Virus record (IMG/VR): IMGVR_UViG_3300004097_003605
Coordinates: 610 to 64,609 of that record
Length of the DNA: 64,000 nt
Direction: 5' to 3' (one strand)
Source: a virus
The position numbers were made by a program, and so were the translations under genes. Below are positions 3,097-42,903 of the stretch, piece by piece. The notes below the pieces were generated by a model. That model was given only the letters and a program-made list of their open reading frames with translations. It did no database searches and was not told the DNA's origin. Position 1 is the first letter of the stretch; the number at the start of each line of letters is the position of its first letter.

Positions 3097-3507
3097 TCAG
3101 TCTGCTGGCGACTCCTTCGCCTCACCCCACGCTCGCCGTTGCTTCCGCCAGTCGGGGATGGCGGCGATGGGTTGGAGTTGGCGGAGGTGGAGCGGGTCGC
3201 GGCCGGATTCGACCCGAGGCAGGAACAGCAGGTCTTCCTGGATGTCGGGAGCCAGCATCAGCAGATTCATGATCTGCGTGACCCGAGCCCGACTGACGTT
3301 GCCGAGGTGGGCGAGTTCGGACTGGTTGTCGATCTTTCCAGCCTTGATCAGTCCGTCGAAGCGGATTGCCAGCGCCATCAGGCGGGCGACTCGCGGAATG
3401 CGTCCGGACGGACGCGGTGTGTCGTCCGGCGGGCCGTCGACCAGAACGCGGCGGCCACGATTCTGTCGCTGGAAGTGGATCTCGGCTTCGACTCGAATCG
3501 GTTTCAT
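3097..3507 (-). CDS. Recombinase-associated hypothetical HTH protein
   Basis: 136 aa; overlaps the recombinase stop; HTH-like segment SELAHLGNVSRARVTQIMNLL. Confidence 0.75.
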   Translation of the reverse strand: MKPIRVEAEIHFQRQNRGRRVLVDGPPDDTPRPSGRIPRVARLMALAIRFDGLIKAGKIDNQSELAHLGNVSRARVTQIMNLLMLAPDIQEDLLFLPRVESGRDPLHLRQLQPIAAIPDWRKQRRAWGEAKESPAD

Positions 3508-5096
3508 GATGCGTCTTCCTCGTCAGTGAATTCCTCGGTCAGTGTCTGGATTCCATTGGGATGAAACGTGACGGCGACCTTGTTGCGGGCACCGTCGTAG
3601 TCGACCCGGGAAACCAGCAGGCTGATGACACGAACCTGTTCGCGGGGTGGCATGGATTCCCACAGCGGGTCAAACAGGGACATGGCCTGTGCGACTTCCT
3701 TCTGGTCCACGACCTTGTGACTGAGCGCGAGCGCCTTCTCACGAAGTTCGGTCATGCGTCGTTCGCCGTCGCGGATACGTTCCTGCAGGTCAGCCAGCCG
3801 ATCGACGGCGGGCGATGCCTGATCGCTCGGCTTCAACTGGTCGATCAGACGTCTCACTTCGTCATTCCAGCGAACGAGTTCCTGTTCGAGACCGTGGCGT
3901 TCGGCTTCCAGCCCTTTCACCAGTTCGTTGGCCTGCTCACGGGCCTGTGCGACGGTGTCGCGAATCAACTCTTCGTCTCGACCGACGCAGCGGATCTGGT
4001 CTACGACGAATCGTTCAATCTCAGTCGCGGGGATAGAGCGCGACGGGCATGTGTGCCATCCGCGTTTCTGCGCCGCCGAGCAGACGTAGTAGCGGTAGCG
4101 TTTCCCGTCCGGCTTCTTCGTGTGTGTCGGCACCATTGCCGCATCGCAGGGAACACAGCGCAGAATGCCCTTCAGTAGAGCGCCGAAGCGGTTCCGCACG
4201 AGCGCGCCGCCAGTGCGACCGTTGCGCTGGAGCAACGACTGCACGCGCTGCCAGGTTTCCGGGTCGACGATGCCAGCGTGCTCCCCTTCATGGATTTCGT
4301 CCTTGTACCGCAGTTTGCCGGTGTACGTCACATTGGTGAGCAACTTGTGCAGACTCGACTTCGTAAACGTCTTCCCGCCGCGTTCAGTGCCCTTGCGGGT
4401 GATCCATCGCTTGTTGAACCATCCGCGATTCTCAAGTTCCTGAATGACGGCAAGCAGTGAGCGGTGTTCGAGGTACAGCTCGTAGATTATTCCCACGCGC
4501 ACAGCCTCGTCCTCATTGACGATCAGCTTCGAGCCACGCGGATCGACGTCATAGCCCAGTATCGGCATGCCGCCTGACCATTTCCCCTTGCGTCGCGCTG
4601 CGGCAATCTTGTCTCGCGTCCGTTCCGAAATGATCTCGCGTTCGAACTGGGCGAAGGACAGCAGGATGTTAAGCGTCAATCTGCCCATCGAACTGGTCGT
4701 ATTGAAATTCTGCGTGACAGCGACAAACGACACGCCGTGCAGGTCGAACTTCTCCAGCATGCGTGAGAAATCCATCAGCGACCGACTGAGGCGATCGACC
4801 TTGTAAACGACCACGCAGTCGATTCGGTCGGCTTCAATGTCGGCCATCAGCCGCTTCAGCGCTGGGCGGTCCATGTTGCCGCCTGTGAATCCGCCGTCGT
4901 CGTACTTGTCGGCGACAAGTTCCCAGCCTTCCTGTACCTGGCTGAGAATGTACGCCTCACCGGACTCACGTTGAGCGTCGAGCGAATTGAATTCCTGGTC
5001 GAGGCCTTCCTCTGTCGACTTTCGCGTGTAGACGGCACATCGAATCTTCGCTGGCGGCTTTTCCCGGCCATTGCGACGTTGAGAGAACTGACTCAT
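3504..5096 (-). CDS. Large serine recombinase (resolvase + recombinase + Zn-ribbon + coiled coil)
   Basis: YTRKST catalytic Ser motif, VVYKVDRLSRS, Zn ribbon LRCVPC...YYVC, C-terminal coiled coil. Confidence 0.95.
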   Translation of the reverse strand: MSQFSQRRNGREKPPAKIRCAVYTRKSTEEGLDQEFNSLDAQRESGEAYILSQVQEGWELVADKYDDGGFTGGNMDRPALKRLMADIEADRIDCVVVYKVDRLSRSLMDFSRMLEKFDLHGVSFVAVTQNFNTTSSMGRLTLNILLSFAQFEREIISERTRDKIAAARRKGKWSGGMPILGYDVDPRGSKLIVNEDEAVRVGIIYELYLEHRSLLAVIQELENRGWFNKRWITRKGTERGGKTFTKSSLHKLLTNVTYTGKLRYKDEIHEGEHAGIVDPETWQRVQSLLQRNGRTGGALVRNRFGALLKGILRCVPCDAAMVPTHTKKPDGKRYRYYVCSAAQKRGWHTCPSRSIPATEIERFVVDQIRCVGRDEELIRDTVAQAREQANELVKGLEAERHGLEQELVRWNDEVRRLIDQLKPSDQASPAVDRLADLQERIRDGERRMTELREKALALSHKVVDQKEVAQAMSLFDPLWESMPPREQVRVISLLVSRVDYDGARNKVAVTFHPNGIQTLTEEFTDEEDAS

Positions 5097-18445: not shown

Positions 18446-18459
18446 GTTCGGCGTCTCCT

Positions 18460-19146: not shown

Positions 19147-19158
19147 CGCAGGAGCCCT

Positions 19159-23317: not shown

Positions 23318-23352
23318 TCGTCAGTTCGAACCGCAACCGGGTAGGTCTACAG
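23318..23352 (+). promoter_or_regulatory. Phage promoter motif, copy C
   Basis: TCGTCA-gttcgaaccgcaa-CCGGGTAGGTCTACAG; 44 nt before the GTG at 23396, the first morphogenesis gene. Confidence 0.78.
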
Positions 23353-29754: not shown

Positions 29755-31034
29755 CACACCGATTTCTTTTCACGGCAGTGCTCCTGATGACCGCATCGGT
29801 CGCCCATGCGGACGAACGCGATGCCGTCGTCCGTGTGGACGGCTGCACGGGATTCATCGTCGCCGACAATCTGCTCGTGACCGCGAAGCACTGCCGCCAT
29901 CCCGCCCGTCTGAAAGTCAAAGTGCAGGGGAAGGACGTTTCCGCAAGTCGCGTCTACGTGTACCGCGGTGAAGACGGTCCGGCGGTGTTTCAACTCGACG
30001 GTGGGCCGTTTGCAAGTCTGCCGGTCGCGAGCCGTAAGCCGGAGATTGGTGAGCGTGTCTATTCGCTGGGTTATCCCGGCGGGAACTGGGCACGGATTGA
30101 AGGCGAAGTCAGCGGCGGCAACGGCGTTGATATCAACTACACCAACCATCGCATCGACAGTGGTAACAGTGGTGGCCCGCTGCTCAACGCAAGAGGTGAG
30201 GTCGTTGGAGTCGCTCTGCACGTTGCCGCCAATCCAGGAGTACACAGCTCCGGGTTCTCTGGCTGGCGAGTGACGACGGAGGCGATTCGCGCGGCACAGG
30301 GCGAAACGATCGAATTGCCGCAGCGCTACAGCCGACAACCGGTCGTCGTCGTGTTTTCCTCGACCAGTTGTTCGAGTTGCCGACAACTTGAGACCGACGT
30401 CGCGTCAGGCCAGTTCCGCGACTACCAGTTCCGATTCGTGAAGTGGGATCCGCAGATGCGGCAGTGGAGTGATCCGGAATTGTTCCGGGAATTCTCGAAC
30501 ACGTGCCGTCCGACAGAACAACTCGGCTTTCCCACGATCTGGGTAAAAAACACAAGTCAATACCGGGTCGGCTATTCGGCTGCCCGACGAGGCGGTCTGC
30601 TCGGCTGGCTTTCAAACGCCGTACGGTCACTGGTGGAAGCAATCATCGGGCACGAAGAACCACCGCCTTTTCCGACACCGAATGAGGTTCCGATTCCACC
30701 GGTCACTGATCCGGCACCGGTCCCCGGACCACCATCCGAAGAAGCGGCACCCGACACTGCACTCCTGCGGCTGGCACGTGACCTTGCTGCTCTGCGTGAC
30801 GAGGCGAGGGAGACACGCAGCGACTTCAACGAATTCCGCGAGTCCGGGGTCATCGGAAAGATTCGGGCCATCGCCAGGTTGCGCGAAGATAAGGACGACG
30901 CACTGGAAGCGGTCAACGCCGTTCGGGCTGATGTGGATGCAGTCCGCGACGACTTTCGGGAACGACCACTGCAGTTTCTGTGGGGGCTGTTTGGAACCAT
31001 CACCGGGCTGCTTCATCGGAGGTTTGCTCACTGA
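29751..31034 (+). CDS. Secreted trypsin-like serine protease + thioredoxin-like domain + C-terminal amphipathic tail
   Basis: Signal peptide (..ASVAHA); VTAKHC; DSGNSGGP; CSSC with FPTIW; Pro-rich linker. Confidence 0.85.
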   Translation: MTHRFLFTAVLLMTASVAHADERDAVVRVDGCTGFIVADNLLVTAKHCRHPARLKVKVQGKDVSASRVYVYRGEDGPAVFQLDGGPFASLPVASRKPEIGERVYSLGYPGGNWARIEGEVSGGNGVDINYTNHRIDSGNSGGPLLNARGEVVGVALHVAANPGVHSSGFSGWRVTTEAIRAAQGETIELPQRYSRQPVVVVFSSTSCSSCRQLETDVASGQFRDYQFRFVKWDPQMRQWSDPELFREFSNTCRPTEQLGFPTIWVKNTSQYRVGYSAARRGGLLGWLSNAVRSLVEAIIGHEEPPPFPTPNEVPIPPVTDPAPVPGPPSEEAAPDTALLRLARDLAALRDEARETRSDFNEFRESGVIGKIRAIARLREDKDDALEAVNAVRADVDAVRDDFRERPLQFLWGLFGTITGLLHRRFAH

Positions 31035-31294
31035 TGGGAACGATTGCAGGCATCATCGCGACAGCAGCCCTGTCGCATCTGGGCGGAGCGACGCTGGGTG
31101 GCGTGCTCGCGAAGTTCGGCGTGCTGGGCTTCGGGAAGAAGCTGACGGTCGCACGGCACATCCTCAAAGTTGGAAAAGCACTCAGGCAACGGCTGGACCG
31201 CGACCGCAATGAAGAGGCTCGCAAGGACCTCAAAGCCTGGCTGAAGAATCACGATCCGGACAACGAGTCCGGCCTCGGTAACGGCATCACCTGA
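31034..31294 (+). CDS. Small hydrophobic protein (membrane/holin-like candidate)
   Basis: Gly/Ala/Leu-rich hydrophobic N-half, basic C-half. Confidence 0.6.
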   Translation: MGTIAGIIATAALSHLGGATLGGVLAKFGVLGFGKKLTVARHILKVGKALRQRLDRDRNEEARKDLKAWLKNHDPDNESGLGNGIT

Positions 31295-32530: not shown

Positions 32531-34570
32531 ATGGCCAGTGCATCCGGAATCCGCGCTGGACGGGCTTTTGTCGAGTTGTTCGCGGATGACTCAAAGCTCG
32601 TTCGCGGTCTGAACGCTGCCCGCAAACGATTACAGGCGTTCGGTTCGTCGGCGCGGGCCATCGGCACGCGATTATTGACTGCCGGGTCTCTTGTGGCCGC
32701 TCCGCTGTCGTTCGCGGTGAAGGCCGGCAGCGACATGGAAGAGACGATGAACAAGTTCAATGTCGTCTTTGGTCAGAACGCACCGGCGGTGAAAGATTGG
32801 AGCGATCAGTTTGCCGGACAGATGGGACGCTCGAAAAAGCAGGTGGCCGACTTTCTTGCCGGGACTCAGGACCTGCTGGTTCCGATCGGTTTTGACGATG
32901 ACAGTGCGACCACGATGAGCCAGCAGCTGACCGGCCTGGCGATCGACCTGGCGTCTTTCAACAACATGTCGGATTCGGATGTGCTGCGCGACCTGCACGC
33001 GGCACTGACAGGATCGAGCGAGGTCATGAAAAAGTATGGCGTGATCGTCAACGAGACCGCCGTCAAACAGGAGATGCTCAATCAGGGTGTCGACCCCAGT
33101 CACGCCACCGAGCAGCAGAAGGTGATGTCGCGGCTGGCGATCATCATGCGCGGGACGACTGCGGCGCAGGGCGATGCCGAACGCTCGGCCGGTTCGTTCG
33201 CGAATCAGATGAAAGCGCTGCAGGCGAAGGTCGAGGACGCGGCGGTTGAGATCGGGTCGGCTTTGCTGCCGGTCGTCACGCCGCTGGTCACTGCGCTGGC
33301 CGACGCCGTGAAGATGGTCAGCGCGTGGATCAAAGAGAATCGCGGGCTGGTCATTGTGCTGGCGAAGATCGCTGCTGCTGCGGTCGCTGCCGGACTGGCG
33401 TTCATCCTGATCGGCACTGTGGTCTCGGGATTCGGGGCGACGCTGGGAGCACTCGCGTCCGTGCTCACCGGCATCGGAAGTGCGTTCAGCCTCGTGGGGT
33501 CAGCGATTGCCGCACTGATGTCGCCGATCGGACTGGTGATCGCCGGCGTCGGAGTACTCGCGGCTTACCTCATCACCTCGACGGATGCCGGCGGGCAGGC
33601 TCTGGCATGGCTGGGCGACAAGTTCGCAGTCCTCAAAGACGAGGCGCTCGCCGCGTGGAGCGGTATCAGTGACGCACTTGCGGCGGGAGATATCGGGCTG
33701 GCCGCACGCATTTTGTGGTTGACGCTCAAGTTACAGTGGCAGAAGGGCGTCGCCGCTCTTAACCGCATCTGGGCCAGCGTGAAGAACACGTTTCTCACGA
33801 CTTGGACGGAAGCGGTCTTCAGTACAGCTGCGATCGCCACGGAAGGCTGGGCCGGGCTGCAGTCCGCGTGGACGGAGACGATCGACTTCCTCGCCGATGC
33901 GTGGTCGATCTTCACGACCGGCCTGACGAAGACGTGGAACACGGCCGTCGGGTTCATTCGTACGGCGTGGATCAAACTGAAGTCGCTGTTCGACGACGAG
34001 GTAGATGTCGACGCCGAAGTCGTCCGCATCACGGAAGAAACAACTTCGGCGAATGCCTCGGAAGACCGGTCGCGCGACGAACGTATCTTCCAGCGTGAGC
34101 GGCAGCGTCGAGAGCGACTGAGTGAGATCGAACAGCAGAGCTCCGGCACGCTGGAAGAACTCGAACGCGAACGGGTCAGTGAACAGGACCGCCACTCGGA
34201 GCAGTTCCGTTCCGACGTTCGGCAGTCGGAAGACTCGCTTTCTCAGGCGCGTCGAGAGTGGCAGCAGGCGACCGAACAGGCGGCCGAGGCTCGTCGCCAG
34301 TCGGAGTCCGAAGCTGACGACGGTCCCGCGAAGGCAAAGTCGCCAGGCGATCTGATTCAGCAGTTGCAGCAGCAACTCAACGGAGCGGGCGAGCAACTGC
34401 AGGAGACGCAGGATCGCATCAGCGTTACGGGAACTTTCAACGCCGCCGCTGTGCGTGGTCTGGGCGGTGGAGCCCCCGAGGAACGAACGGCCAAAGCCAC
34501 GGAAGAAACCGCGAAGAACACCCGCCGCATTCTGGATGAGGCCCGTCAGAACGGGCTTGTTTTTGGTTGA
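32531..34570 (+). CDS. Tape measure protein
   Basis: 679 aa, Ala-rich helical protein with hydrophobic middle; follows the chaperones. Confidence 0.9.
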   Translation: MASASGIRAGRAFVELFADDSKLVRGLNAARKRLQAFGSSARAIGTRLLTAGSLVAAPLSFAVKAGSDMEETMNKFNVVFGQNAPAVKDWSDQFAGQMGRSKKQVADFLAGTQDLLVPIGFDDDSATTMSQQLTGLAIDLASFNNMSDSDVLRDLHAALTGSSEVMKKYGVIVNETAVKQEMLNQGVDPSHATEQQKVMSRLAIIMRGTTAAQGDAERSAGSFANQMKALQAKVEDAAVEIGSALLPVVTPLVTALADAVKMVSAWIKENRGLVIVLAKIAAAAVAAGLAFILIGTVVSGFGATLGALASVLTGIGSAFSLVGSAIAALMSPIGLVIAGVGVLAAYLITSTDAGGQALAWLGDKFAVLKDEALAAWSGISDALAAGDIGLAARILWLTLKLQWQKGVAALNRIWASVKNTFLTTWTEAVFSTAAIATEGWAGLQSAWTETIDFLADAWSIFTTGLTKTWNTAVGFIRTAWIKLKSLFDDEVDVDAEVVRITEETTSANASEDRSRDERIFQRERQRRERLSEIEQQSSGTLEELERERVSEQDRHSEQFRSDVRQSEDSLSQARREWQQATEQAAEARRQSESEADDGPAKAKSPGDLIQQLQQQLNGAGEQLQETQDRISVTGTFNAAAVRGLGGGAPEERTAKATEETAKNTRRILDEARQNGLVFG

Positions 34571-34598
34571 GGAATCATGAGGACACCGGTCACACGAA

Positions 34599-35393
34599 AT
34601 GCCTGTCACGGTTCACGAGAAATGGGACAGCCGCGAAACGACGATCAGCGAAGACTCGACCGTCGATCTGCGGTTCGTGATTCGCGGCACGAACGACGAC
34701 GCGGCGGCCAACTCGGCGCTGCTGTCGGCGTCGCCCGTGCTGTATGGCGGGCTTGTGCGCCAGAGTCTTCATACCGAGCGGATCGCCGAGTACGAGTGGG
34801 AAGGCTCGGTCCGTTACGGCCGGTTCGAACCGCCTCAGACCGGCGACAGTTCCTTCTCGTTCGACACGGGTGGCGGCTCACAACACATCACACAGTCGCT
34901 GGCCACGGTTGGAGCGTGGTCAGTCGATGGGCCGCCTCCCGACTTTCGCGGCGCGATCGGAGTCACACGCGACAGTGTCGACGGCGTGGACATCACGGTC
35001 CCGGTCTACAACTTCAGCGAGACGCACTACATCAGTGTGGGCTTCGTGACCGCTGCCTACAAGGCGGCTCTCTTCTACCTCACCGGTCAGGTCAACAACG
35101 CGCCGTTCCGCGGGTTCGCTTCCGGCGAAGTGCTCTTCCTCGGCGCGTCCGGTTCGAGGCGAGGCCCCGACGACTGGGAGATCACGTACCGCTTCGCCGC
35201 CAGTCCCAACGTCGCCGGACTGGCCGTTGGCGACATGACAGGCATCGGCAAACGCGGCTGGGAGTATCTCTGGGTGCGGTATGAGGATGTCGAAGACACG
35301 GCGGCGATGGCACTCGTCAAGCGGCCGGTCGCGTCTTACGTCGAACAGGTTTATCCGTATGGCAACTTCGCGGGACTTGGCATTGGAGCGTGA
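34599..35393 (+). CDS. Tail tip/distal tail protein
   Basis: Directly after the tape measure; beta-rich, 264 aa. Confidence 0.65.
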   Translation: MPVTVHEKWDSRETTISEDSTVDLRFVIRGTNDDAAANSALLSASPVLYGGLVRQSLHTERIAEYEWEGSVRYGRFEPPQTGDSSFSFDTGGGSQHITQSLATVGAWSVDGPPPDFRGAIGVTRDSVDGVDITVPVYNFSETHYISVGFVTAAYKAALFYLTGQVNNAPFRGFASGEVLFLGASGSRRGPDDWEITYRFAASPNVAGLAVGDMTGIGKRGWEYLWVRYEDVEDTAAMALVKRPVASYVEQVYPYGNFAGLGIGA

Positions 35394-35396
35394 CGT

Positions 35397-36032
35397 GTGG
35401 GAGATGCCTTCCGAAAAGTCCGGACCGGCGACGCCCTGCGAATTCCGGCTGAGACGTTCAACACGTTCATTGATGCCGCGCGCGATTTCAAAACGCGGCA
35501 ACGTTCACTGGCCCGGCAGGTTGAATCCGAATTCTCGCAGGCAGGCATCATCCCGGTCCGTAATGACTCGGGCGAGGACCGCAGTCGGTTCGACGTGCTG
35601 GGCATCTGCGGTCCGGTGTTTCCGCCAGCGGTCAGCCTCACGTCGTTCCAGAACCGCGTCGCGCTCGCCGGAACGACGCCGTGTGAGGTCGCCCACCTCG
35701 GACGGTTCGTCGTGCTGCTCGAACCGGTCCGTGCCGGACGGATCGGCATGGCCTGTGTCAGTGGCGTCTGTGTGGCAAAGGTTACGGTTGAGGATCCCAC
35801 GCATGAATTTGCAGACGTTGAGGACGGCAACCCGGAGAACCTGAAGTCAGCCGAATCCGGTTCCGCGTTTCTGCTGTGGACCGACGACCCCGGCGGTGAT
35901 GGAGATGGCTACGACGGCGGATACGGCTACTGCGGTTACGGATACACGGGCGGCTATGGCTACGGCGGACCGGTGTGGGCGGTCATTCGGATTGGCAACA
36001 TTTGTCCGGGGCAGCAGTGGGGTGCGGTGTAA
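35397..36032 (+). CDS. Tail tip protein with Gly/Tyr-rich loop
   Basis: 211 aa; GGDGDGYDGGYGYCGYGYTGGYGYGG near the C-terminus. Confidence 0.65.
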   Translation: MGDAFRKVRTGDALRIPAETFNTFIDAARDFKTRQRSLARQVESEFSQAGIIPVRNDSGEDRSRFDVLGICGPVFPPAVSLTSFQNRVALAGTTPCEVAHLGRFVVLLEPVRAGRIGMACVSGVCVAKVTVEDPTHEFADVEDGNPENLKSAESGSAFLLWTDDPGGDGDGYDGGYGYCGYGYTGGYGYGGPVWAVIRIGNICPGQQWGAV

Positions 36033-36067
36033 CGGGGATGGACGAACGAAGTCAGGCAGGAGGGACA

Positions 36068-39000
36068 ATGACAATCGTGAATGGAGCCGCGACGCTGCTG
36101 GCCGATCTGACGCGACTTGGAATCCGTCTGGAACCGCGCGGCAGTCGACTGGCGTACTTCCCGCAGTCGCGGATGACGCCCGACCTGCTGTCCCGACTGG
36201 GACAATACAAATCGGAACTGTTGCCACTGCTGAACGGAACGTCGGTCGTCGCACGGACGCCGAAAGAGCAGAAGGCGGAGTCCCCGGTTGTCAGCACGGT
36301 CGCAACCGTTGACGTGACAGCGCCCGTCTCGGTGATCATCACCTGCCACAACTACGCGCGGTACCTGGAATCGGCGATCCTCAGCGTCCTCGGCCAGACT
36401 CAGCGGCCGACCGAAATTATCGTGGTCGACGACGCGAGCACAGATCACACGAAAGATGTAGCGGCCCTGTTTGCACGCGAGGGCGTCGAATATATCCGCG
36501 TGGAGCATCGCAGTACTCACCTGGCCCGACTGGCGGGCTTCAACCGGGCGCACGGTGAATTCGTCCTGTTCGTCGACGCCGACAACCTGCTCTCACGCGA
36601 GTTCATCGAACATGGACTGGCTGCATTTGACGCCAGTGACATCGGTGCTGTGTACGGAAACGTCGAGCGTTTCGGGATCGATACGGGCCGGACGAATCGT
36701 CCTGCGGAGTTACCGCGTGAAGACATTTTCCGTGCGGCACTCGGTGATTGCTCTGCGATCATCCGCCGTAACGCACTGGTCTCCGCGGCAGCGTGGGACC
36801 GCACGCTGCCGGCGGAAATTCCGGCTCAGGCTTATGTCTATCAGAAACTTGCCCGGCTCGGCTGGAAGTTCCACCGTCACGACGGCGTGCTCCGCATCCG
36901 CACGCACGCCGGTCAGCAACACCGACGATTCGCCGATCAGCGAGCCGAGTATTTCGTCCGAGAGGCACTTTCGCTGCAGGACGTGACACTGTTTATCCCG
37001 CTCGCCGGGCGACACTTCGCCTGGGACCGAATGAGTGACTTTCTGCAGCAGCAGGTCTGGCCGCATCCGCAGACGCATCTGATCTTGTGCGACACCAGCC
37101 AGAACCGACGATTCAGCGATCGCATTCGCGACTGGATCCGGCAGTGCGATTATCCGGACGTGCGACACATGATGTGTGCGCCGGGCCCGGCAGGTCTGGC
37201 TGACCGCGTACGCGGCGGCGGAACGGACGCGATCCGTTACCTCAACGAGGTCATGTGTCGCATCGCCAACCGCCTGCGGGCGACGGTCGATACCGAGTAC
37301 ACGTGGGTCCTCGAAGACGACGTGATCCCGTCGCCAGATGTGCTGCCGCGACTGATGCGGCATTTCCGCGAGAACGTCGGCACGGTCTCTGCGCCGTACC
37401 GGTCGCGTCAGGACGGACAGTACTACGTGTGGGATCGCGATCTCGGCAAAACGCCAGGCGTGCATCGCATTAACCGTCCTGAAGCAGATCGTCCTCAGAC
37501 GCAGGACGTTCGTGGCACGGGATTCGGCTGCGTGGTGATGCGGAGCGATCTGCTGCGGAAGCACGTCTTCTCGATCCCACGCGGCGAACTCTGCTTTGAC
37601 GTCCACTTCTTCCGCACACTGGAATCCCGCTGGCGACGCATCTGCGACTGGACATGCGAAGCCGAACACCTCTCCGCACCGAACAGTAGCCCGAAGAGAC
37701 GCAAGGAGAAGTTCCCGGATCCGGTGTGGTTCCGGCAGGCAACGATGCGTCGCAGTGACTGGACACTGGATGAACTCTACAAACTGGTCAGCGGCACGTT
37801 CTCCGACATCAGCGAGCACTGTTCGACACTGAAAGAACTTGCCTCTCAGTGTGATCACGTCACGGAACTCGGCACGCGTTACGGCATCTCGACCGTCGCT
37901 CTGCTGGCCGGACAGCCGGAGCAGTTCGTGAGCTGCGACCTGCACCGGCAGCCGACAATCGGCGTCATCGAATCAGTCACCGGTGAGACGAAGTTCCGCT
38001 TCATGGAAGGCGACAGCAGGCGGATCGATCTTGAGGAAACCGATCTGCTCTTCATCGACACGCTGCATGAGTACGACCAGCTCCGAGCGGAACTGGCCCG
38101 TCACTCGGCCAAGGTCCGCAAGTGGATCGTGCTGCACGACACCGAGTCATTCCGCACCGAAGGCGAAGCTGGCGGGCGTGGTCTGTGGCCGGCTGTTGAA
38201 GAGTTCGTTCGCAATGGCCAGTGGCGGATCGCGAAACATCACGAGAACAACAATGGTCTGACCGTTCTCGAACGGATCGTCCACACGCCCGGCGTGTCTC
38301 TGATCACTCCGACCGGCGATCGTCCCGAAGCCTTCGCGTTGTGCGTCAAATGGATGCAGCGGCAGCAGTGCGAGAAGGTCGGCCCGCTGCAATGGATCAT
38401 CGTCGATGACGGACGAAAGCCGATTGACCGTTCGCTGCTCTCAGCTCTGGATTCTGATCGCTGGACCATCCAGTACATCCGCCGGGAGCCGCTACCAAAA
38501 GATCCGGCGCACACGCTGTGTCTCAACATGCAGCTGGCGCTGCCACACATTGCTCGCGACAAAGTGCTGATTATCGAGGATGACGATTACTACGCCCCCG
38601 ACTACATCACCACGATGGCCAGCTGGCTCGACAAAGCCGACCTCGTTGGCGAAGTCGGAGCGAAATACTACTACCTCGATTCCCGCTCCTACTACCACTT
38701 CCGCGAACACCAGCACGCGAGCTGGTGCCGCACTGGCTTCCGTCCCTCGGTCATTCCCATTGTGTGGAAGGAAGCGGCCCGCACAAATCAGTGGTCGCTC
38801 GATCTACGGGTGTGGGAAGCATGGAGCGGCTCAAAGCACCCGTGGGTCGATGAGTCTGGCAGCCGTGCTCTGTGCATCGGCATCAAGGGAGTCCCCGGTC
38901 GGGCCGGAGCGACCTGGAAGACCGGACGGGCCAGCTATGCCGATCCGGGTTTGAAGCAACTGAAAACATGGCTCGGTGATGACGCGACCGACTACGAACC

Positions 39001-39712
39001 ACTACTGACGAGCCGCCAGCGAGTGAAGGCTCCGTCGGCAAAGGTCGTTGTCTACACCGCGATCTTCGACGGCTACGACCGGTTGCTCACAGACCACGTC
39101 GTCAACGACGGCGTGAATTACGTTTGCTTCACGGATGCCGACATCAAAGAACCCGGCCCGTGGGAATTGAGACGAGTCGAACGCACTCAGAAATCCGCCC
39201 GCCGTGAGAACCGCCGCTACAAGCTGCTCTCGCACCGCTGGTTTCCGGATGCCGACTACACAATCTATTTCGACGGCTGCTCGCGGTTGCTGATCGATCC
39301 GGTCGACCTGGTCAACTACTGCGAGTCATGCGACCCGCAAATGGCCCGGCGTAACGAAGCGAAGCTGTTCACGTGCCGACACCCGGAACGCGACTGCCTC
39401 TATGCAGAGGCCGACGTCTGCATCCGCACACGGCGCGATGATCCGGACACGATCCGCAGGCAGATCGAGCGATACCGCAAGGAAGCCTTCCCCGAGCATG
39501 CCGGTCTGCCGCACGGCGGCTTACTCATCCGTAAACGCGGCTGCGAGTTCTTCAATCAATGCTGGTGGGATGAGGTCATGGCAGACTCGTGCCGCGACCA
39601 GATCAGCTTTCCGTATGCCGTCCGTCGATCAGGCATCGGTCACGTGCTGCTGCCCGAGCCCATTGAAAAGTTCACCGAACGGCTGCGGCACGCGCAGCCG
39701 TATCACATCTGA
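36068..39712 (+). CDS. Multidomain glycosyltransferase: TubC_N-like + GT2 + GT2-like + methyltransferase + GT2-like + DUF616
   Basis: AGGAGGG RBS before ATG 36068; VSVIITCHNY..VVDDAS..FVDADN; VLEDDV; TELGTRYGIST..LLFIDTLH..LHDT; IIEDDDYY; RRYKLLSH..YFDG..RDQISFPY. Confidence 0.85.
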   Translation: MTIVNGAATLLADLTRLGIRLEPRGSRLAYFPQSRMTPDLLSRLGQYKSELLPLLNGTSVVARTPKEQKAESPVVSTVATVDVTAPVSVIITCHNYARYLESAILSVLGQTQRPTEIIVVDDASTDHTKDVAALFAREGVEYIRVEHRSTHLARLAGFNRAHGEFVLFVDADNLLSREFIEHGLAAFDASDIGAVYGNVERFGIDTGRTNRPAELPREDIFRAALGDCSAIIRRNALVSAAAWDRTLPAEIPAQAYVYQKLARLGWKFHRHDGVLRIRTHAGQQHRRFADQRAEYFVREALSLQDVTLFIPLAGRHFAWDRMSDFLQQQVWPHPQTHLILCDTSQNRRFSDRIRDWIRQCDYPDVRHMMCAPGPAGLADRVRGGGTDAIRYLNEVMCRIANRLRATVDTEYTWVLEDDVIPSPDVLPRLMRHFRENVGTVSAPYRSRQDGQYYVWDRDLGKTPGVHRINRPEADRPQTQDVRGTGFGCVVMRSDLLRKHVFSIPRGELCFDVHFFRTLESRWRRICDWTCEAEHLSAPNSSPKRRKEKFPDPVWFRQATMRRSDWTLDELYKLVSGTFSDISEHCSTLKELASQCDHVTELGTRYGISTVALLAGQPEQFVSCDLHRQPTIGVIESVTGETKFRFMEGDSRRIDLEETDLLFIDTLHEYDQLRAELARHSAKVRKWIVLHDTESFRTEGEAGGRGLWPAVEEFVRNGQWRIAKHHENNNGLTVLERIVHTPGVSLITPTGDRPEAFALCVKWMQRQQCEKVGPLQWIIVDDGRKPIDRSLLSALDSDRWTIQYIRREPLPKDPAHTLCLNMQLALPHIARDKVLIIEDDDYYAPDYITTMASWLDKADLVGEVGAKYYYLDSRSYYHFREHQHASWCRTGFRPSVIPIVWKEAARTNQWSLDLRVWEAWSGSKHPWVDESGSRALCIGIKGVPGRAGATWKTGRASYADPGLKQLKTWLGDDATDYEPLLTSRQRVKAPSAKVVVYTAIFDGYDRLLTDHVVNDGVNYVCFTDADIKEPGPWELRRVERTQKSARRENRRYKLLSHRWFPDADYTIYFDGCSRLLIDPVDLVNYCESCDPQMARRNEAKLFTCRHPERDCLYAEADVCIRTRRDDPDTIRRQIERYRKEAFPEHAGLPHGGLLIRKRGCEFFNQCWWDEVMADSCRDQISFPYAVRRSGIGHVLLPEPIEKFTERLRHAQPYHI

Positions 39713-39727
39713 AAGGATCACGCAGGG

Positions 39728-41611
39728 ATGCAGGTCTCCGTCATTATCACCTCTCACAACTATGGTCACTTCCTCGAACCGGCGATCCTCAGCGTCCTCG
39801 CGCAGACAACGCGGCCGCACGAGATTCTCGTCGTCGATGATTCGAGCACGGACAACACCCGCGAGGTCGCCGAAGGTTTCGCCGACCGGGGCGTGAAGCA
39901 TCTGCGACTGGAAACCGGTAGCGTTCACAAGGCCCGCCGTGCCGGCGTGAAGCAGACGTCGGGCGATGTCGTGCTGTTTCTTGACGCCGACAACTGCCTG
40001 GCACCGGATTACATCGAGTGCGGCCTCAAAGAATTTGTCAGTCTGAAAGTTGGCGTGGTCTACGCGGACCTGCAGCGTTTCGGCCAGTACGACCACGACC
40101 GCACCAACTTCCCGGCGTTCACTCGCGGACGGTTACTGCGGTTCAACTTCGTCGATGCCTGCGCTCTGGTGCGTCGCGACGCTCTCGAAGTCTGCAATGC
40201 ATGGGACACCGCGTTCGATGACTTCCTCACGCCAGAAGACGACTGGATGTTTCAGTGTCTGGCTCGAGACGGATGGGAGTTCCGCAAGCAGAAAGGACTC
40301 GTCTGGTATCGAACTCACGACGGCCAGAAGAACCGCCGGGCGTTTGGCGAGCGCAAGAGAGCAGGCTATTTCATTTTGCGGGGCCTGCATCTGCAGCAGG
40401 TGACACTATTCATCCCACTGGCCGGACGCGACTACGCGTGGGCGGAGCAGAGTCGGTTCCTGGAACGGCAGGCCTGGCCGCACGACCGTATCCGGTTGAT
40501 TCTGTGCGACACGAGCCAGAACCCGGAATTCACTCGAAAGGTCCGCCAGTGGATCGCGTCCTGCGATTACACCGATATCCGTCACTTCCAGTTCGCACCC
40601 GATCGCGCGGGCATTGCGGACGAGTCCCGTTACGACCGGCAGATTGAACACGACGTCCAGGTCGCGATGTGCCGTATTTACAACCGGCTGCGGGCGGCCA
40701 TCGACACCGATTACGTGTGGGTACTCGAGGACGACATCATTCCGCCGGACGATGCCCTCGAACGCCTCATGAAACATTTCAGCCGGGACGTGGCCTGCGT
40801 CGGAGCACCCTATCCGTCCCGCTGGGATCCACAGTACGTCGTGTGGAACGCCGACCGAAAGCCTGGTCAAAAGGGTGTGCATCGTGCCTTGAAGCCAGCT
40901 GATGGCGAACCACAGGTGCAGCAGGTCCGAGGCATGGGCTTCGGCTGCACGGTCTTTCGTTCTGAAGTCCTGCTCGATCACATCTTCCGCATGCCACGCG
41001 GCGAGCCTTATTACGATCCCTACTTCTATCGCAGCCTGCCCGATACATGGAAACGGATCTGCGACTGGTCCTGCGAAGCACAGCACCTTGGTCCGCGCGG
41101 ACGCGGGGCTCAGGCGTATTGGGAAGGTCGCAAAGATCTGAGGTACTACCGTCAGGCTGTCGATCTGGCTCGGAAGCATGCCCCTGAAGCGACGTCACTG
41201 CTCGACGTCGGTGGCGGAGTGAGTCTCGGCTGCCGTTACCTGGAGTGGTTCGACTGGATCACCGATCGCGTGTCCGTCGAACGAAACGACGGTGACTACA
41301 CGCTTGACGGTGTCCAGGTTGAATTTGCCGACTTCTCGGTCTGGCAATCAACAAAACGCTTCGATGTTGTGATGGCTTTGCAGGTACTGGAGCATCAGCC
41401 TGACCCGGCTTCCTTCGCGCAGAAACTGCTGGCCACTGGCGGGATCATGATCATCAGCGTGCCTTATCGCTGGCTGGCTGGTTCGTGTGGCGATCACCGG
41501 CATGATCCCATTGACGAAGCGAAGCTCCATCAATGGTTCGGCTGTGAGCCACTCGAATCAAACATTGAGGACACTCGTCTGGTCGCTGTCTACAAAGGGG
41601 TGGCCGGATGA
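39728..41611 (+). CDS. GT2 + GT2-like + SAM methyltransferase
   Basis: VSVIITSHNY..FLDADN; VLEDDI; LLDVGGG..QVLEH. Confidence 0.87.
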   Translation: MQVSVIITSHNYGHFLEPAILSVLAQTTRPHEILVVDDSSTDNTREVAEGFADRGVKHLRLETGSVHKARRAGVKQTSGDVVLFLDADNCLAPDYIECGLKEFVSLKVGVVYADLQRFGQYDHDRTNFPAFTRGRLLRFNFVDACALVRRDALEVCNAWDTAFDDFLTPEDDWMFQCLARDGWEFRKQKGLVWYRTHDGQKNRRAFGERKRAGYFILRGLHLQQVTLFIPLAGRDYAWAEQSRFLERQAWPHDRIRLILCDTSQNPEFTRKVRQWIASCDYTDIRHFQFAPDRAGIADESRYDRQIEHDVQVAMCRIYNRLRAAIDTDYVWVLEDDIIPPDDALERLMKHFSRDVACVGAPYPSRWDPQYVVWNADRKPGQKGVHRALKPADGEPQVQQVRGMGFGCTVFRSEVLLDHIFRMPRGEPYYDPYFYRSLPDTWKRICDWSCEAQHLGPRGRGAQAYWEGRKDLRYYRQAVDLARKHAPEATSLLDVGGGVSLGCRYLEWFDWITDRVSVERNDGDYTLDGVQVEFADFSVWQSTKRFDVVMALQVLEHQPDPASFAQKLLATGGIMIISVPYRWLAGSCGDHRHDPIDEAKLHQWFGCEPLESNIEDTRLVAVYKGVAG

Positions 41612-42216
41612 CGAACGAACAACTCACCCAGCGTCGGGCGTTGTGGGATGCGTACCTGAAAGAGCACCAGCCCAACGCATCGGTCGCACATCACCTGCAG
41701 CGAATGCTGTTCGCCTACACTCGGTATCCCGAGGCTGAATCGGCTTTGAGTCACTTGCCATGCGCTGGAAGCCATGTCCTCGACTTCGGCTGCGGCGTCG
41801 GTGACTACGGAGTCTCGTTCGCCCGACGTAGTTGGACTGTCACCTTCTGCGACGTCCCGGACGTCCTGAAGTTCGCGAGGTTCCGCTGCAGGCACGAAAC
41901 GATCAATGCCGAGTTCATCGAGTCACCGACCGAGTTCCACGGTTTCGATGCTGTCGTCTTCGGCGAAGTTCTCGAACACCTGACAAACCCGCTGGAACTG
42001 CTCACCGCCTGCATCCAGCAAGTCCGCTGGATCGTCACGTCGAGCTACCCGCTTCCGCACAGTGACGAGTACTGGACCCGCTACCCGGATCACACCGATG
42101 AAGCCCGTCAGCAGCAATCGGCCTGCCTGAGCCTGCTGCGATCGCACTGCGAATGCAGCCGGACCAGCGGAATGCTCTGCGTCTGGAAGAACCGCTCACT
42201 GCCGGAGCCTGAGTAG
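41608..42216 (+). CDS. Class I SAM-dependent methyltransferase
   Basis: VLDFGCGVG, FDAVVFGEVLEHL. Confidence 0.88.
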   Translation: MTNEQLTQRRALWDAYLKEHQPNASVAHHLQRMLFAYTRYPEAESALSHLPCAGSHVLDFGCGVGDYGVSFARRSWTVTFCDVPDVLKFARFRCRHETINAEFIESPTEFHGFDAVVFGEVLEHLTNPLELLTACIQQVRWIVTSSYPLPHSDEYWTRYPDHTDEARQQQSACLSLLRSHCECSRTSGMLCVWKNRSLPEPE

Positions 42217-42903
42217 ATGGCCGACCTGACGCTGATCACCTGCACGGCCGACCGGCCGGAAGCCTTCCATCTATGCGAACGCTGGATGGCACGGCAGACG
42301 TATCGAGGCTCCATTCAATGGATCGTCGCTGACGGCGGTGAGAAACCCGCGAATTGCACCCGAGGTCAACAGCACCTGATCCTCGGCCCCGAACCCGACC
42401 CGCTGAAGAACTTCCGCCGAAACCTGACCGTCGCCCTGGAGCACGTCGAGTCCCGGATGATCGCGTTCATCGAAGACGACGACTGGTATGCCCCCGACTG
42501 GCTAGAAGCTGTAACCGGTTGGCTCACCAACGCCGACATCGCCGGCGAAATCCCGGCCCGATACTACAACGTCGCGTCACGTCGTTACCACGAGCATGCC
42601 AACGGCACGCACGCGTCCCTGTGTCAGACCGCGATGCGTTCGTCGCTGCTTTGGAGTCTTCTGACTGCAATCGGGCATGATCGGGGACCTTTTGTTGATC
42701 GCACGCTATGGGACCAGGTTGCTGCAACGAAGCGTCAGCGACTTGAGCGATCTTGCCGCGTGATTGGCATGAAAGGTGTTATAGGTCGCGTTGGCCTTGG
42801 GCTTGGCCATGCTGATCACCACTTCGGATCCAGCGATCCAGATAGAGCAACTCTTGACCGCTGGATGAGTTGCGATGCCGGTCTGTTCTTTCCGAAAACT
42901 TGA
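42217..42903 (+). CDS. GT2-like glycosyltransferase
   Basis: LITCTADRPEAF..FIEDDDWY; paralogous to the third GT domain of the 36068 gene. Confidence 0.8.
   Translation: MADLTLITCTADRPEAFHLCERWMARQTYRGSIQWIVADGGEKPANCTRGQQHLILGPEPDPLKNFRRNLTVALEHVESRMIAFIEDDDWYAPDWLEAVTGWLTNADIAGEIPARYYNVASRRYHEHANGTHASLCQTAMRSSLLWSLLTAIGHDRGPFVDRTLWDQVAATKRQRLERSCRVIGMKGVIGRVGLGLGHADHHFGSSDPDRATLDRWMSCDAGLFFPKT

What the first reader, a model, noticed from the sequence alone, without database searches (positions are those of the whole stretch)
36068..42903. Prophage-encoded soluble glycan assembly cassette in the tail-fibre slot: candidate virion glycosylation system
Seen: four co-transcribed genes at the end of the late operon encode about six GT2-like domains, one DUF616-like GT and three methyltransferase domains. 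I saw no TM segments, flippase, GtrA/B or sugar-nucleotide synthesis genes, and no base-hydroxymethylase. Established: serotype-conversion cassettes are membrane-based and lysogen-expressed, whereas some mycobacteriophages glycosylate capsid and tail proteins using GTs near the structural genes. Inference: this phage builds a methyl-capped oligosaccharide on virion proteins in the cytoplasm, for shielding or as a glycan adhesin replacing a fibre. I know of no such report for Planctomycete phages.
Basis: partly seen in the sequence, partly recalled or inferred. Interest (0 to 1): 0.85.

Follow-up and report, generated by a model that had tools for sequence, protein, structure and literature searches.

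The report
Phage tail-end glycan-building enzyme cassette
A prophage of a marine Planctomycete ends its virion-gene operon with four soluble enzymes carrying seven sugar-transferase and three methyltransferase domains; comparison with related phages suggests, without proving it, that they put a methylated sugar chain on a small virion appendage protein encoded just upstream.

Summary
Window 36068-42903 carries four tightly packed plus-strand genes with six GT2-type domains, one TOD1/MUCI70 (DUF616) domain, three SAM-methyltransferase domains and an N-terminal TubC_N-type docking domain. I found no convincing membrane segment.

The genes close the late operon of a roughly 39-kb serine-integrase prophage of a Planctomycetaceae host. 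They match the prophage, not the flanks, in codon-position GC and in divergence from a relative.

- **Conserved module.** Ten phage loci share TMP, a 264-aa tube/Dit-like protein (tA), a roughly 200-aa protein with a disordered Gly-Tyr loop (tB), then the docking-domain GT. The tailoring enzymes after that GT vary.
- **tB tail type tracks a GT.** Other tB clades with poly-serine tails are followed by unrelated GTs (GT25-sulfotransferase, GT4). Ten sampled relatives with other tails are followed by none.
- **GT-C family.** The g4/g1-C domain sits inside head, connector or tail gene blocks in 39 of 50 dereplicated viral contigs, and in Stenotrophomonas maltophilia prophages.

Best reading (about 0.55): cytoplasmic glycosylation of a virion protein, probably tB. 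Lysogenic conversion remains the main rival. It is a new variant of a known kind (mycobacteriophage and chlorovirus virion glycosylation). This scan has noted many similar cassettes on other DNA. No glycan, acceptor or expression timing is shown.

The parts
3504..5096 (-). Large serine recombinase, at the left end of the prophage.
   Evidence: Pfam Resolvase, Recombinase and Zn_ribbon_recom. McrBC-like host genes lie to its left.
23318..23352 (+). Promoter-like motif TCGTCA-N13-CCGGGTAGGTCTACAG ahead of the portal gene. It is the nearest upstream copy on the cassette's strand.
   Evidence: Three exact copies occur in the window (5917 minus, 9695 plus, 23318 plus). No further copy appears with up to 3 mismatches, and none lies before g1.
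32531..34570 (+). Tail tape measure protein.
   Evidence: 15 PHROG families matched, 13 of them annotated tape measure.
34599..35393 (+). tA, a 264-aa conserved tail-end protein with two tube-like beta domains.
   Evidence: Frame chosen by GC3 of 0.78. The family has 4817 representative clusters. The model has pLDDT 92.7. Weak Foldseek matches go to tail tube, Dit and baseplate proteins, with the best E at 0.02.
35397..36032 (+). tB, a 211-aa virion appendage-base protein and the proposed acceptor.
   Evidence: 183 homologues, mostly from Planctomycetota, with variable C-termini. The model has an N-terminal helix plus a beta domain. Weak matches (Z 5.5-5.7) go to capsid decoration and head-fibre base proteins.
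35892..35969 (+). Gly-Tyr tract of tB (GGDGDGYDGGYGYCGYGYTGGYGYGG), modelled as a disordered loop.
   Evidence: pLDDT is below 50 for residues 166-188. Tract length differs between relatives. An assembly bubble at 35901-36131 covers most of the tract and the tB-g1 junction.
36068..36250 (+). g1 N-terminal TubC_N-type docking domain.
   Evidence: Pfam PF18563 at 28 bits against a cutoff of 26. PDB sequence matches to AerJ and TubC docking domains. The domain is conserved in L107, L188 and L189.
36323..37834 (+). g1 GT2 domain A followed by GT2-like domain B.
   Evidence: PF00535 stretches. 47% and 55% identical to g2 domains A and B. The closest solved sequences are heparosan and chondroitin synthases, GalT1, TarS and TarP.
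37835..38290 (+). g1 Methyltransf_24 domain.
   Evidence: Pfam PF13578. A 145-nt deletion variant at 38098-38242 exists in another assembly.
38294..39004 (+). g1 GT-C domain, a GT2-like domain with the EDDDYY motif.
   Evidence: 34% identical to g4. 152 viral-contig relatives.
39038..39712 (+). g1 TOD1/MUCI70 (DUF616) glycosyltransferase-like domain.
   Evidence: Pfam PF04765, E 7e-20. PHROG 26101.
39728..41611 (+). g2, with the domain order GT2-A, GT2-B, Methyltransf_23.
   Evidence: Pfam. The family is large in Planctomycetota, and many members carry a TubC_N domain.
41608..42216 (+). g3, a stand-alone class I SAM methyltransferase.
   Evidence: Pfam. 45% identical to the methyltransferase directly upstream of GT-C in L006 and L007.
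42217..42903 (+). g4, a stand-alone GT-C glycosyltransferase and the last gene of the element.
   Evidence: Pfam PF00535 at 27.7 bits. Homology with the relative L004 ends at about 42828. 44% identical to the S. maltophilia prophage protein.

Best explanation
The four genes form a phage-encoded, cytoplasmic glycan-assembly line. They are most likely read from the same late transcript as the head and tail genes.

I propose these steps, all of them inferred:
1. The docking domain of g1 tethers the enzyme to a partner. That partner is most likely tB, the small virion appendage protein encoded directly upstream, or another enzyme of the line.
2. The first GT2 domains start a sugar chain on a virion protein. 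The best candidate site is tB's exposed Gly-Tyr loop.
3. The remaining GT domains (GT-C, DUF616, and the second series in g2 and g4) extend the chain.
4. The three methyltransferase domains O-methylate sugars.

The result would be a virion carrying a methylated glycan at the place where related phages carry a protein extension. The glycan could serve adsorption or shielding.

**Shown:** domain content, phage membership, conserved gene order, and the link between tB tail type and a downstream GT.
**Inferred:** the acceptor, the chemistry, the timing and the benefit.
For: **1. The cassette belongs to the phage.**
- GC3 of g1-g4 is 0.65-0.76. Prophage genes show 0.64-0.78 (most 0.70 or more) and the flanking genes 0.49-0.72, with the adjacent right-flank genes at 0.49-0.54.
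- The relative L004 keeps TMP, tA, tB and g1-g4 at 72-94% protein identity, and homology stops at the end of g4.
- The genes are tightly spaced, and g1 has no copy of the phage promoter motif of its own.

**2. The order TMP, tA, tB with Gly-Tyr loop, then docking-domain GT recurs in ten loci.**
- These are the window, L004/L108, L107, L109-L113, L188 and L189.
- Across them tB identity falls to 46% and tape-measure identity to 38%.
- The enzymes after the first GT differ from locus to locus.

**3. tB tail type tracks a downstream GT.**
- Among 80 viral loci with a tB homologue, 6 of 6 Gly-Tyr short forms are followed within 3-219 nt by the A-B GT, against 1 of 74 others.
- Two other tB clades with poly-serine tails are followed by unrelated GTs: GT25-sulfotransferase and GT4.
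- Among ten sampled relatives with other tails, none of the downstream genes tested (mostly the next plus-strand ORF; a later one in L125 and L133) had a GT domain.

**4. GT-C sits among virion genes elsewhere.**
- It lies within six genes of a head, connector or tail gene in 39 of 50 dereplicated viral loci, often next to methyltransferases.
- In S. maltophilia prophages it sits between the head-closure and tail-completion genes.
- In L006 and L009 it follows the tape measure.

**5. The tB model shows a plausible acceptor.** The Gly-Tyr tract is a disordered loop on a well-folded beta domain.

**6. Precedents exist.**
- Cluster O mycobacteriophages carry an O-methyltransferase plus three GTs that modify capsid and tail tube proteins (PMC11600133, citing Freeman et al. 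2023).
- PBCV-1 A064R is a soluble GT-GT-methyltransferase enzyme that builds the capsid glycan (PMC9614988).
Against: - No chemistry, no acceptor and no expression data are available. No RNA run was listed.
- The Gly-Tyr forms are a single clade (support 100/99). Their link with the docking-domain GT therefore counts as one evolutionary event.
- Counted by clade, the tail-type association is modest: 3 of 4 low-complexity clades against 1 of 11 others, Fisher p about 0.03 (my own calculation).
- L141 has a GT2 gene after a tB without a low-complexity tail. L182 has a serine-rich tail but no adjacent GT.
- The cassette is the last block before the prophage end, which is also the usual place for lysogenic-conversion cargo.
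- Capsid and tail tube proteins here have no Ser/Thr-rich C-terminal tails.
- There is no sequence homology to the Corndog enzymes.
- Fold matches for tA and tB are weak, so their place on the virion is not settled.
- Truncated copies of the cassette occur next to host genes or an IS element.
Confidence: 0.55

Rival explanations
1. Lysogenic conversion. The cassette is prophage cargo, expressed in the lysogen, that alters a host envelope glycopolymer or glycoprotein from the cytoplasmic side. This would work as TarP does for wall teichoic acid in S. aureus prophages, and would change phage susceptibility or surface properties.
For: - The cassette is the last block before the right prophage end, a typical place for such cargo.
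- The first GT2 domains match TarP and TarS at sequence level (E 2e-6 to 2e-7).
- The A-B didomain family is abundant in Planctomycetota genomes.
- Remnant copies persist next to host genes, as might be expected if the host benefits.
Against: - There is no separate promoter motif and no change in GC, and the genes are tightly coupled to the tail genes.
- The docking-domain GT always follows tB in ten related loci.
- GT-C relatives sit in the middle of head and connector operons in many phages, which is a poor place for lysogen-expressed cargo.
- A GT is found downstream according to the tB tail type.
Confidence: 0.22
2. Late-expressed modification of something other than the virion. The target could be the dying cell's envelope or released debris (for example, masking receptors so that progeny are not trapped), or a free methylated oligosaccharide or polysaccharide.
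For: - The position in the late operon and the soluble enzymes fit this equally well.
- The tailoring sets are large and variable, including sulfotransferase-like, pyruvyl-transferase and 2OG-oxygenase genes in L188 and L189. They resemble polysaccharide loci.
Against: - This does not explain why a GT tracks low-complexity tracts in tB.
- It does not explain the docking domain.
- No initiating polyprenyl-phosphate transferase or exporter is present.
Confidence: 0.12
3. Glycosylation of phage DNA bases, as an anti-restriction hypermodification.
For: - The phage encodes a ParB-DNA methyltransferase fusion.
- It lies beside defence islands.
- Phage GTs that hypermodify DNA are known (bioRxiv 10.1101/2023.12.21.572611, abstract seen).
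Against: - No hydroxymethylase, TET/5mYOX or dNMP kinase module was found.
- The cassette lies at the tail end, far from the replication genes.
- Seven GT domains would be excessive for base decoration.
- The conserved pairing is with tB.
Confidence: 0.03
4. The cassette is not phage DNA. It is a host locus that happens to lie next to the integration site.
For: - One JGI assembly breaks exactly at 36068-36107.
- A Planctomycetaceae MAG contig joins host genes (GH38-like, PilM-like) to the middle of g1.
Against: - The break is a 40-nt contig overlap inside a low-depth assembly bubble at 35901-36131.
- Ten loci in different genomic backgrounds keep tB followed by the docking-domain GT.
- GC3 matches the prophage.
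- Homology with L004 continues through g4 and then stops.
Confidence: 0.03

Closest known systems
Mycobacteriophage virion glycosylation genes, e.g. cluster O phages such as Corndog: an O-methyltransferase followed by three GTs (Freeman et al. 2023, read only through PMC11600133 and PMC11256854)
   Same: - Phage-encoded, soluble GTs together with a methyltransferase.
- Located in or next to the structural genes.
- Reported to modify virion proteins (capsid and tail tube).
   Different: - No detectable sequence homology to Corndog gp35-38.
- Here the enzymes are fused into multi-domain proteins with a docking domain.
- Here they lie after the tail-end genes, not between the portal and protease genes.
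- The candidate acceptor is a Gly-Tyr loop of a tail-end protein, not C-terminal tails of capsid or tube.
- The host is a Planctomycete.
Chlorovirus PBCV-1 A064R (638 aa: GT, GT, methyltransferase) with the stand-alone methyltransferase A061L (PMC9614988)
   Same: - g2 (627 aa) has the same order of two GT domains followed by a SAM methyltransferase, and g3 is a separate methyltransferase.
- The enzymes are soluble and cytoplasmic, and in PBCV-1 they build and methylate the end of a capsid-protein glycan.
   Different: - No sequence similarity was detected; no PBCV-1 chain appears among the PDB sequence matches.
- The PBCV-1 host is eukaryotic and its glycans are N-linked.
- The acceptor here is unknown.
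TarP, a prophage-encoded wall-teichoic-acid GT2 of Staphylococcus aureus (PDB 6h1j)
   Same: - A prophage-borne GT2 without membrane segments.
- Weak sequence match to the first GT2 domain of g2 (E 1.9e-6).
   Different: - TarP is a single-domain enzyme that acts on a host polymer in the lysogen.
- Here there are ten transferase domains, coupled to tail genes and to tB.
TubC_N-type docking domains of NRPS/PKS assembly lines (TubC, PDB 2jug; AerJ, PDB 8aqq)
   Same: The g1 N-terminus passes the Pfam cutoff for PF18563 and matches both solved docking domains.
   Different: - In NRPS systems these domains pair consecutive synthetase subunits.
- Fusion to glycosyltransferases in phages is not something I know to be described.
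- The partner here is not identified.
Bifunctional glycosaminoglycan synthases (heparosan synthase PmHS2, chondroitin polymerase K4CP)
   Same: - They are the best solved sequence relatives of the first GT2 domains (E 3e-13 to 3e-11).
- They also carry two GT-A domains in one chain.
   Different: - The matches cover only about 100-135 residues of one domain.
- Nothing here indicates a polymerase of a repeating disaccharide.

Membership tests
GT2 (GT-A fold) glycosyltransferases | Sequence match to PF00535 above the curated cutoff. | tested here: met
   - g1: 140 bits, three stretches.
- g2: 118.8 bits, two stretches.
- g4: 27.7 bits against a cutoff of 23.3.
GT2 (GT-A fold) glycosyltransferases | Acidic DXD-type metal and nucleotide-sugar binding motif in each domain. 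| tested here: met
   The translations show DAD in g1-A and g2-A, EDD in g1-B and g2-B, and EDDD in g1-C and g4. Assignment is by eye, not by structure.
Class I SAM-dependent methyltransferases | Pfam methyltransferase match plus the glycine-rich SAM-binding motif I. | tested here: met
   - Methyltransf_24 in g1, Methyltransf_23 in g2, and Methyltransf_23/25/12/11 in g3, each above cutoff.
- Motifs ELGTRYG, DVGGGVS and DFGCGVG are visible.
Phage virion glycosylation systems (as in mycobacteriophages) | GT genes carried by the phage itself. | tested here: met
   Composition, co-divergence with the tail genes, and conserved order in ten loci.
Phage virion glycosylation systems (as in mycobacteriophages) | Glycan covalently attached to virion proteins. 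| not testable with these tools
   This needs purified particles and mass spectrometry.
Phage virion glycosylation systems (as in mycobacteriophages) | Homology to the characterised enzymes. | tested here: not met
   No hit between Corndog gp35-38 and any cassette domain, by BLASTP or with a GT-C profile.
Membrane-based serotype conversion (GtrABC or Wzy/Oac type) | A flippase (GtrA), a membrane-anchored bactoprenol GT (GtrB) and a polytopic serotype-specific GT. | tested here: not met
   No convincing membrane segments. The PHROG 'GtrB-like' hits cover only the soluble catalytic part.
DNA base glycosylation systems | A hydroxymethylating or oxidising enzyme that creates the acceptor base (dCMP/dUMP hydroxymethylase or TET/5mYOX) alongside the GT. 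| tested here: not met
   None was found among the prophage genes scanned with PHROGs and Pfam, or in the precomputed Pfam hits. A few small ORFs were not scanned.
TubC_N docking domains | Binding of a short C-terminal peptide of a partner protein. | not tested
   Only the sequence match was tested.

The most novel reading that the evidence does not exclude
tB is a virion appendage base whose protein receptor-binding extension has been replaced by a Gly-Tyr loop.

The docking-domain megaenzyme recognises tB, possibly through its conserved C-terminal QWGxV peptide. It then O-glycosylates tyrosines of the loop in the cytoplasm. The variable downstream enzymes extend and methylate the chain.

The result would be a 'glyco-fibre' that serves as the phage's adhesin. 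The enzyme set, rather than a protein domain, would then be the evolving host-range determinant.
Probability: 0.15. Interest if true: 0.9.

Novelty: new variant of a known kind. Interest (0 to 1): 0.62.

Why it matters
Virion glycosylation has been shown only for some mycobacteriophages and for giant algal viruses.

Here a whole family of Planctomycete phages keeps a glycan-assembly line at the position where tailed phages usually vary their receptor-binding proteins. An NRPS-style docking domain is fused to the first enzyme, and a candidate acceptor tract lies in the adjacent virion protein.

If confirmed, this would have three consequences:
- Phage-made glycans would extend to another bacterial phylum.
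- It would give a testable rule: a low-complexity tract in an appendage protein predicts a GT in the next gene.
- It would raise the possibility that enzymes, not protein domains, set adsorption or shielding properties.

The GT-C plus methyltransferase pair in S. maltophilia prophages offers a culturable system for a first test.

Tried and rejected
1. **Wrong frames after the tape measure.** My first ORF choices (34577-35284 and 35281-35844) were wrong frames. GC3 analysis replaced them.
2. **False mosaic.** An apparent mosaic between the window and L004 (54-63% in some domains) came from my own out-of-frame domain cuts. In frame, identities are 72-94%.
3. **Contig start at 36068.** The JGI contig that begins exactly at 36068 looked like a prophage boundary. 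It is a 40-nt overlap between two contigs of one assembly, inside a low-depth bubble.
4. **AT-rich loose end at 35804.** One contig in each of runs X1 and X2 carries an AT-rich loose end here. It matches nothing in the window and remains unexplained.
5. **Cultured phages.** g4 finds nothing in 50,697 GenBank phage records or in PHROGs. g1 finds only weak single-domain hits.
6. **Methyltransferase families.** The methyltransferases next to GT-C in other phages (my cluster 1) are not detectably related to g3 or to the g1 and g2 methyltransferase domains. The pairing holds only at superfamily level.
7. **Fold searches.** Searches for tA and tB gave only weak matches.
8. **Terminator and sigma-70 scans.** Counts did not exceed chance.
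10. **RNA runs.** None was listed.
11. **Freeman et al. 2023.** The paper is not held in the library.
12. **P0163 (Gimesia fumaroli).** It could not be located by exact look-up.

Full report
**What is there.**
The window is positions 610-64609 of a 71.6-kb IMG/VR record. Between about 3.5 and 42.9 kb lies a prophage. Its genes, in order:
- large serine recombinase (3504-5096, minus strand)
- LexA-like repressor
- an ECF-type sigma factor
- AAA_24 ATPase, helicase, primase and a ParB-DNA methylase fusion
- large terminase, portal and a protease-capsid fusion
- a lysis-like block
- tail tube protein, chaperones and tape measure

The flanks are host-like and lower in GC. McrBC-type genes lie on the left. 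On the right lie a 2098-aa DEAD/MZB helicase, a sigma-54 activator, a Ser/Thr kinase and a HEPN-DUF499 protein.

**The observation.**
Genes g1 (36068-39712), g2 (39728-41611), g3 (41608-42216) and g4 (42217-42903) are packed with gaps of 15, -4 and 0 nt.

Pfam gives:
- g1: TubC_N dock, three GT2 stretches, Methyltransf_24 and TOD1/MUCI70
- g2: two GT2 stretches and Methyltransf_23
- g3: a SAM methyltransferase
- g4: a weak but above-cutoff GT2

The cassette is internally duplicated:
- g1-A and g2-A are 47% identical.
- g1-B and g2-B are 55% identical.
- g1-C and g4 are 34% identical.

So one domain series is fused in g1, and a second series is split over g2 to g4. This agrees with an earlier first-reader note on this stretch.

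A hydropathy scan shows no convincing membrane segment. I found no flippase, sugar-nucleotide synthesis gene or base-hydroxymethylating gene.

**Is the cassette part of the phage?**
Four lines say yes.
- *Composition.* GC3 of g1-g4 is 0.65-0.76. Prophage genes show 0.64-0.78 (most 0.70 or more), and the adjacent right-flank genes 0.49-0.54.
- *Co-divergence.* The viral contig L004 carries TMP, tA, tB and g1-g4 at 72-94% protein identity. The tail genes diverge to the same degree as the cassette, and homology stops near the end of g4.
- *Promoter motif.* A promoter-like motif, presumably read by the phage sigma factor, occurs exactly three times, at 5917 (minus), 9695 and 23318. No copy appears with up to three mismatches anywhere else. 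The nearest upstream copy on the cassette's strand is the one ahead of the portal gene.
- *More distant relatives*, described below.

Two observations looked contrary. A JGI contig starts exactly at 36068. It overlaps the neighbouring contig of the same assembly by 40 nt, inside a low-depth bubble at 35901-36131 seen in the Logan contigs. That is an assembly break, not a biological boundary. Truncated copies also exist. A Planctomycetaceae MAG joins host genes to the middle of g1. Other contigs show an IS element, a shortened g2, g3, g4, a serine recombinase and then host genes with planctomycete-type domains. I read these as decayed remnants. They also place the host in the Planctomycetaceae.

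**The genes just upstream.**
By codon-position GC, the real genes after the tape measure are tA (34599-35393, 264 aa) and tB (35397-36032, 211 aa). Neither has a Pfam or PHROG match.

tA belongs to a very large unannotated family, with 4817 representative clusters. It folds with high confidence (pLDDT 92.7) into two beta domains. Its only, weak, matches are tail tube, Dit and baseplate proteins.

tB has 183 detected homologues, mostly from Planctomycetota. They share a conserved N-terminal part of about 165 residues and have very variable C-termini. One carries a phage tail-collar domain.

The tB model shows:
- an N-terminal helix
- a confident beta domain
- a disordered loop at residues 166-188, made of Gly-Tyr repeats
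- one more strand
- a short C-terminal end

The best fold matches of the beta domain are capsid decoration and head-fibre base proteins. They score only Z 5.5-5.7, so I call tB a virion appendage-base protein without fixing where on the virion it sits.

The Gly-Tyr tract varies in length between relatives. The assembly bubble covers most of it.

**The conserved module.**
Relatives of g2's A-B didomain are numerous in Planctomycetota, and many carry the TubC_N dock. Every one I could place in context lies directly after tA and tB homologues in a phage tail operon:
- L107, on a 494-kb host contig: portal, capsid, tube, TMP, tA (83%), tB (60%), dock-A-B, methyltransferase
- L109-L113, viral contigs
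- L188 and L189, NCBI assemblies

All these tB proteins have the Gly-Tyr loop and a C-terminus ending in WGxV (QWGxV in most).

What follows the first GT differs between loci:
- a single methyltransferase (L107, L109)
- a 2OG oxygenase, a sulfotransferase-like or pyruvyl-transferase protein and a large methyltransferase-GT2 protein (L188, L189)
- the ten-domain set of the window

This is the pattern of a conserved anchor followed by a variable tailoring set.

**Does the GT go with the tB tail type?**
Of 80 viral loci with a tB homologue, six have the short Gly-Tyr form. All six are followed within 3-219 nt by the A-B GT. Only one of the other 74 is (L141, without a dock).

A tree of the N-terminal domain shows the Gly-Tyr forms as one well-supported clade. 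That association is therefore one event retained over long divergence, not many events.

More independent support comes from other clades whose tB tails are poly-serine tracts:
- L179/L181 are followed by a GT25-sulfotransferase fusion.
- L177/L146 are followed by a GT4-type enzyme. Both GTs are unrelated to GT2.

As a control, I sampled ten relatives with other tails. None of the downstream genes tested (mostly the next plus-strand ORF; a later one in L125 and L133) has a GT domain.

Counting clades, three of four low-complexity clades have an adjacent GT, against one of eleven others. By my own Fisher test p is about 0.03. This is suggestive, not conclusive.

**The GT-C family.**
The domain shared by g1 (residues 743-979 from the ATG) and g4 has 152 relatives in IMG/VR. 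Most are stand-alone proteins of 224-262 aa. It has no relative in GenBank phage records or in PHROGs.

In 39 of 50 loci dereplicated at 90% identity, it lies within six genes of a head, connector or tail gene. That annotation rests on PHROG hits of cluster representatives. Methyltransferases lie close by in 25 of the 50. The recurring arrangements are:
- capsid, methyltransferases, GT-C, connectors, tail tube
- methyltransferases or GTs, GT-C, head protease, capsid
- portal, protease, capsid, methyltransferase, GT-C, head-tail adaptor

In lambda-like prophages of Stenotrophomonas maltophilia, a methyltransferase and a GT-C homologue (44% identical to g4) sit between the head-closure and tail-completion genes. 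In L006/L007 and L009/L010, GT-C follows the tape measure and tail-end genes.

Genes fixed in the middle of morphogenesis operons are poor candidates for lysogen-expressed cargo.

**Mechanism proposed.**
*Shown:*
- the domain inventory with intact motifs
- phage membership
- the late-operon position
- the conserved order tA, tB, dock-GT
- the link between tail type and a downstream GT

*Inferred:*
- The enzymes act in the cytoplasm on a virion protein before or during assembly.
- tB's Gly-Tyr loop is the acceptor.
- The dock binds tB, perhaps its conserved C-terminal peptide, or another enzyme of the line.
- The later GT domains extend the chain and the methyltransferases O-methylate sugars.

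Tyrosine-linked glycans exist in bacterial S-layer glycoproteins (PMC2943079) and in a RiPP (bioRxiv 10.1101/2020.05.20.105809). The chemistry is therefore not unprecedented, but nothing here demonstrates it.

**Comparison with known systems.**
- *Cluster O mycobacteriophages.* They carry an O-methyltransferase followed by three GTs, reported to modify capsid and tail tube proteins (PMC11600133, citing Freeman et al. 2023, which I could not read). The logic is the same, but there is no detectable homology. The position and the candidate acceptor also differ.
- *PBCV-1 A064R.* This is a soluble GT-GT-methyltransferase enzyme of 638 aa. It works with a separate methyltransferase on the capsid glycan (PMC9614988). 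g2 plus g3 mirror that layout without sequence similarity.
- *Prophage TarP.* This is the model for the rival reading, lysogenic conversion.
- *Solved sequence relatives.* For the first GT2 domains, the closest are glycosaminoglycan synthases, GalT1, TarS and TarP. For the N-terminus, they are the TubC and AerJ docking domains.

**Novelty and standing within the scan.**
Earlier notes of this scan describe many GT-methyltransferase cassettes in phage structural operons on other DNA, including one downstream of tail genes. The general idea is therefore recurrent here and is not unique to this window.

Four things are specific to this finding:
- the Planctomycete phage family
- the NRPS-type dock on the first GT
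- the Gly-Tyr loop in the adjacent appendage protein
- the tail-type rule across GT families

I rate it a new variant of a known kind. I put about 0.55 on virion-protein glycosylation in general and about 0.15 on the full 'glyco-fibre' model.

**Limits.**
- No expression data could be found.
- All family-search calls were used, so the control sample is small.
- Gene calls in other loci come from a simple ORF heuristic.

Noticed in passing
window 38098-38242 (seen in L084): Another assembly of the same population (JGI sample 3300028829) carries a 145-nt deletion inside the g1 methyltransferase domain. The deletion shifts the frame. The gene caller then splits g1 into a 682-aa dock-GT-GT protein and a 472-aa GT-C-DUF616 protein. 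Logan contigs of the source sample also break here.
   Followed up: partly
L086, L087 and L088, about 9450-10681: Lambda-like prophages of Stenotrophomonas maltophilia carry a 185-aa SAM methyltransferase and a 226-aa GT-C homologue (44% identical to g4). The pair sits between the head-closure and tail-completion genes, and at least 20 contigs carry it. This is a culturable system in which the family could be tested.
   Followed up: partly
L089 1-13999 (Planctomycetaceae MAG SP200): Host genes (GH38-like, PilM-like and two unknowns) are joined to a truncated g1 starting at window position 38006, followed by g2 and g3. No prophage genes lie upstream. This is either a decayed remnant or a chimeric contig.
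   Followed up: partly
contigs carrying P0007 (ENA ERZ247946xx; no DNA available): The gene order is DDE transposase, two small genes, a shortened g2 (524 aa), g3, g4 (80% identical), a 158-aa ORF, a large serine recombinase and a ParB_N protein. Host genes with PSCyt2/PSD1 domains follow. This looks like an IS-disrupted cassette next to a recombinase.
   Followed up: no
window 5917-5951 (minus), 9695-9729 and 23318-23352: Three exact copies of TCGTCA-N13-CCGGGTAGGTCTACAG lie ahead of the integration-side, replication and head-tail gene blocks. No other copy appears with up to 3 mismatches. The motif probably defines the regulon of the phage's own sigma factor (9078-9686).
   Followed up: partly
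window 28844-31294: Between the connector and tail-tube genes lie four genes: a one-TM 90-aa protein, a 213-aa protein with a weak hydratase-like PHROG hit, a signal-peptide trypsin-like protease fused to a thioredoxin-like domain, and a hydrophobic 104-aa protein. This may be an unusual lysis block. Some relatives have it (L112, L113, L189) and L107 lacks it.
   Followed up: no
window 34599-35393: tA belongs to a family with 4817 representative clusters at E up to 1e-3, but it has no Pfam or PHROG model. The model is confident (pLDDT 92.7) and shows two tube-like beta domains.
   Followed up: partly
L138, L146, L149, L177, L179, L181 and L182 (tB homologues): Several tB relatives carry long poly-serine C-terminal tracts. 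Where the next gene could be read, it is a GT25-sulfotransferase fusion or a GT4-type enzyme.
   Followed up: partly
window 1-2995 and 43255-64000: The prophage sits between defence-type genes. McrBC-like genes lie on the left. On the right lie a 2098-aa DEAD/MZB helicase with a 1256-aa partner at GC 0.50-0.53, a CARF-like sigma-54 activator and a HEPN_Swt1-DUF499 protein.
   Followed up: no
window 35804 (runs X1 and X2): One contig in each of two runs of the source sample matches the window rightwards from 35804. To the left it continues into at least 255 nt of AT-rich sequence that is not found in the window. This is unexplained.
   Followed up: partly
window 18022-19575: This 517-aa ORF is arginine-rich nonsense with no family match. 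It is most likely not a gene.
   Followed up: no
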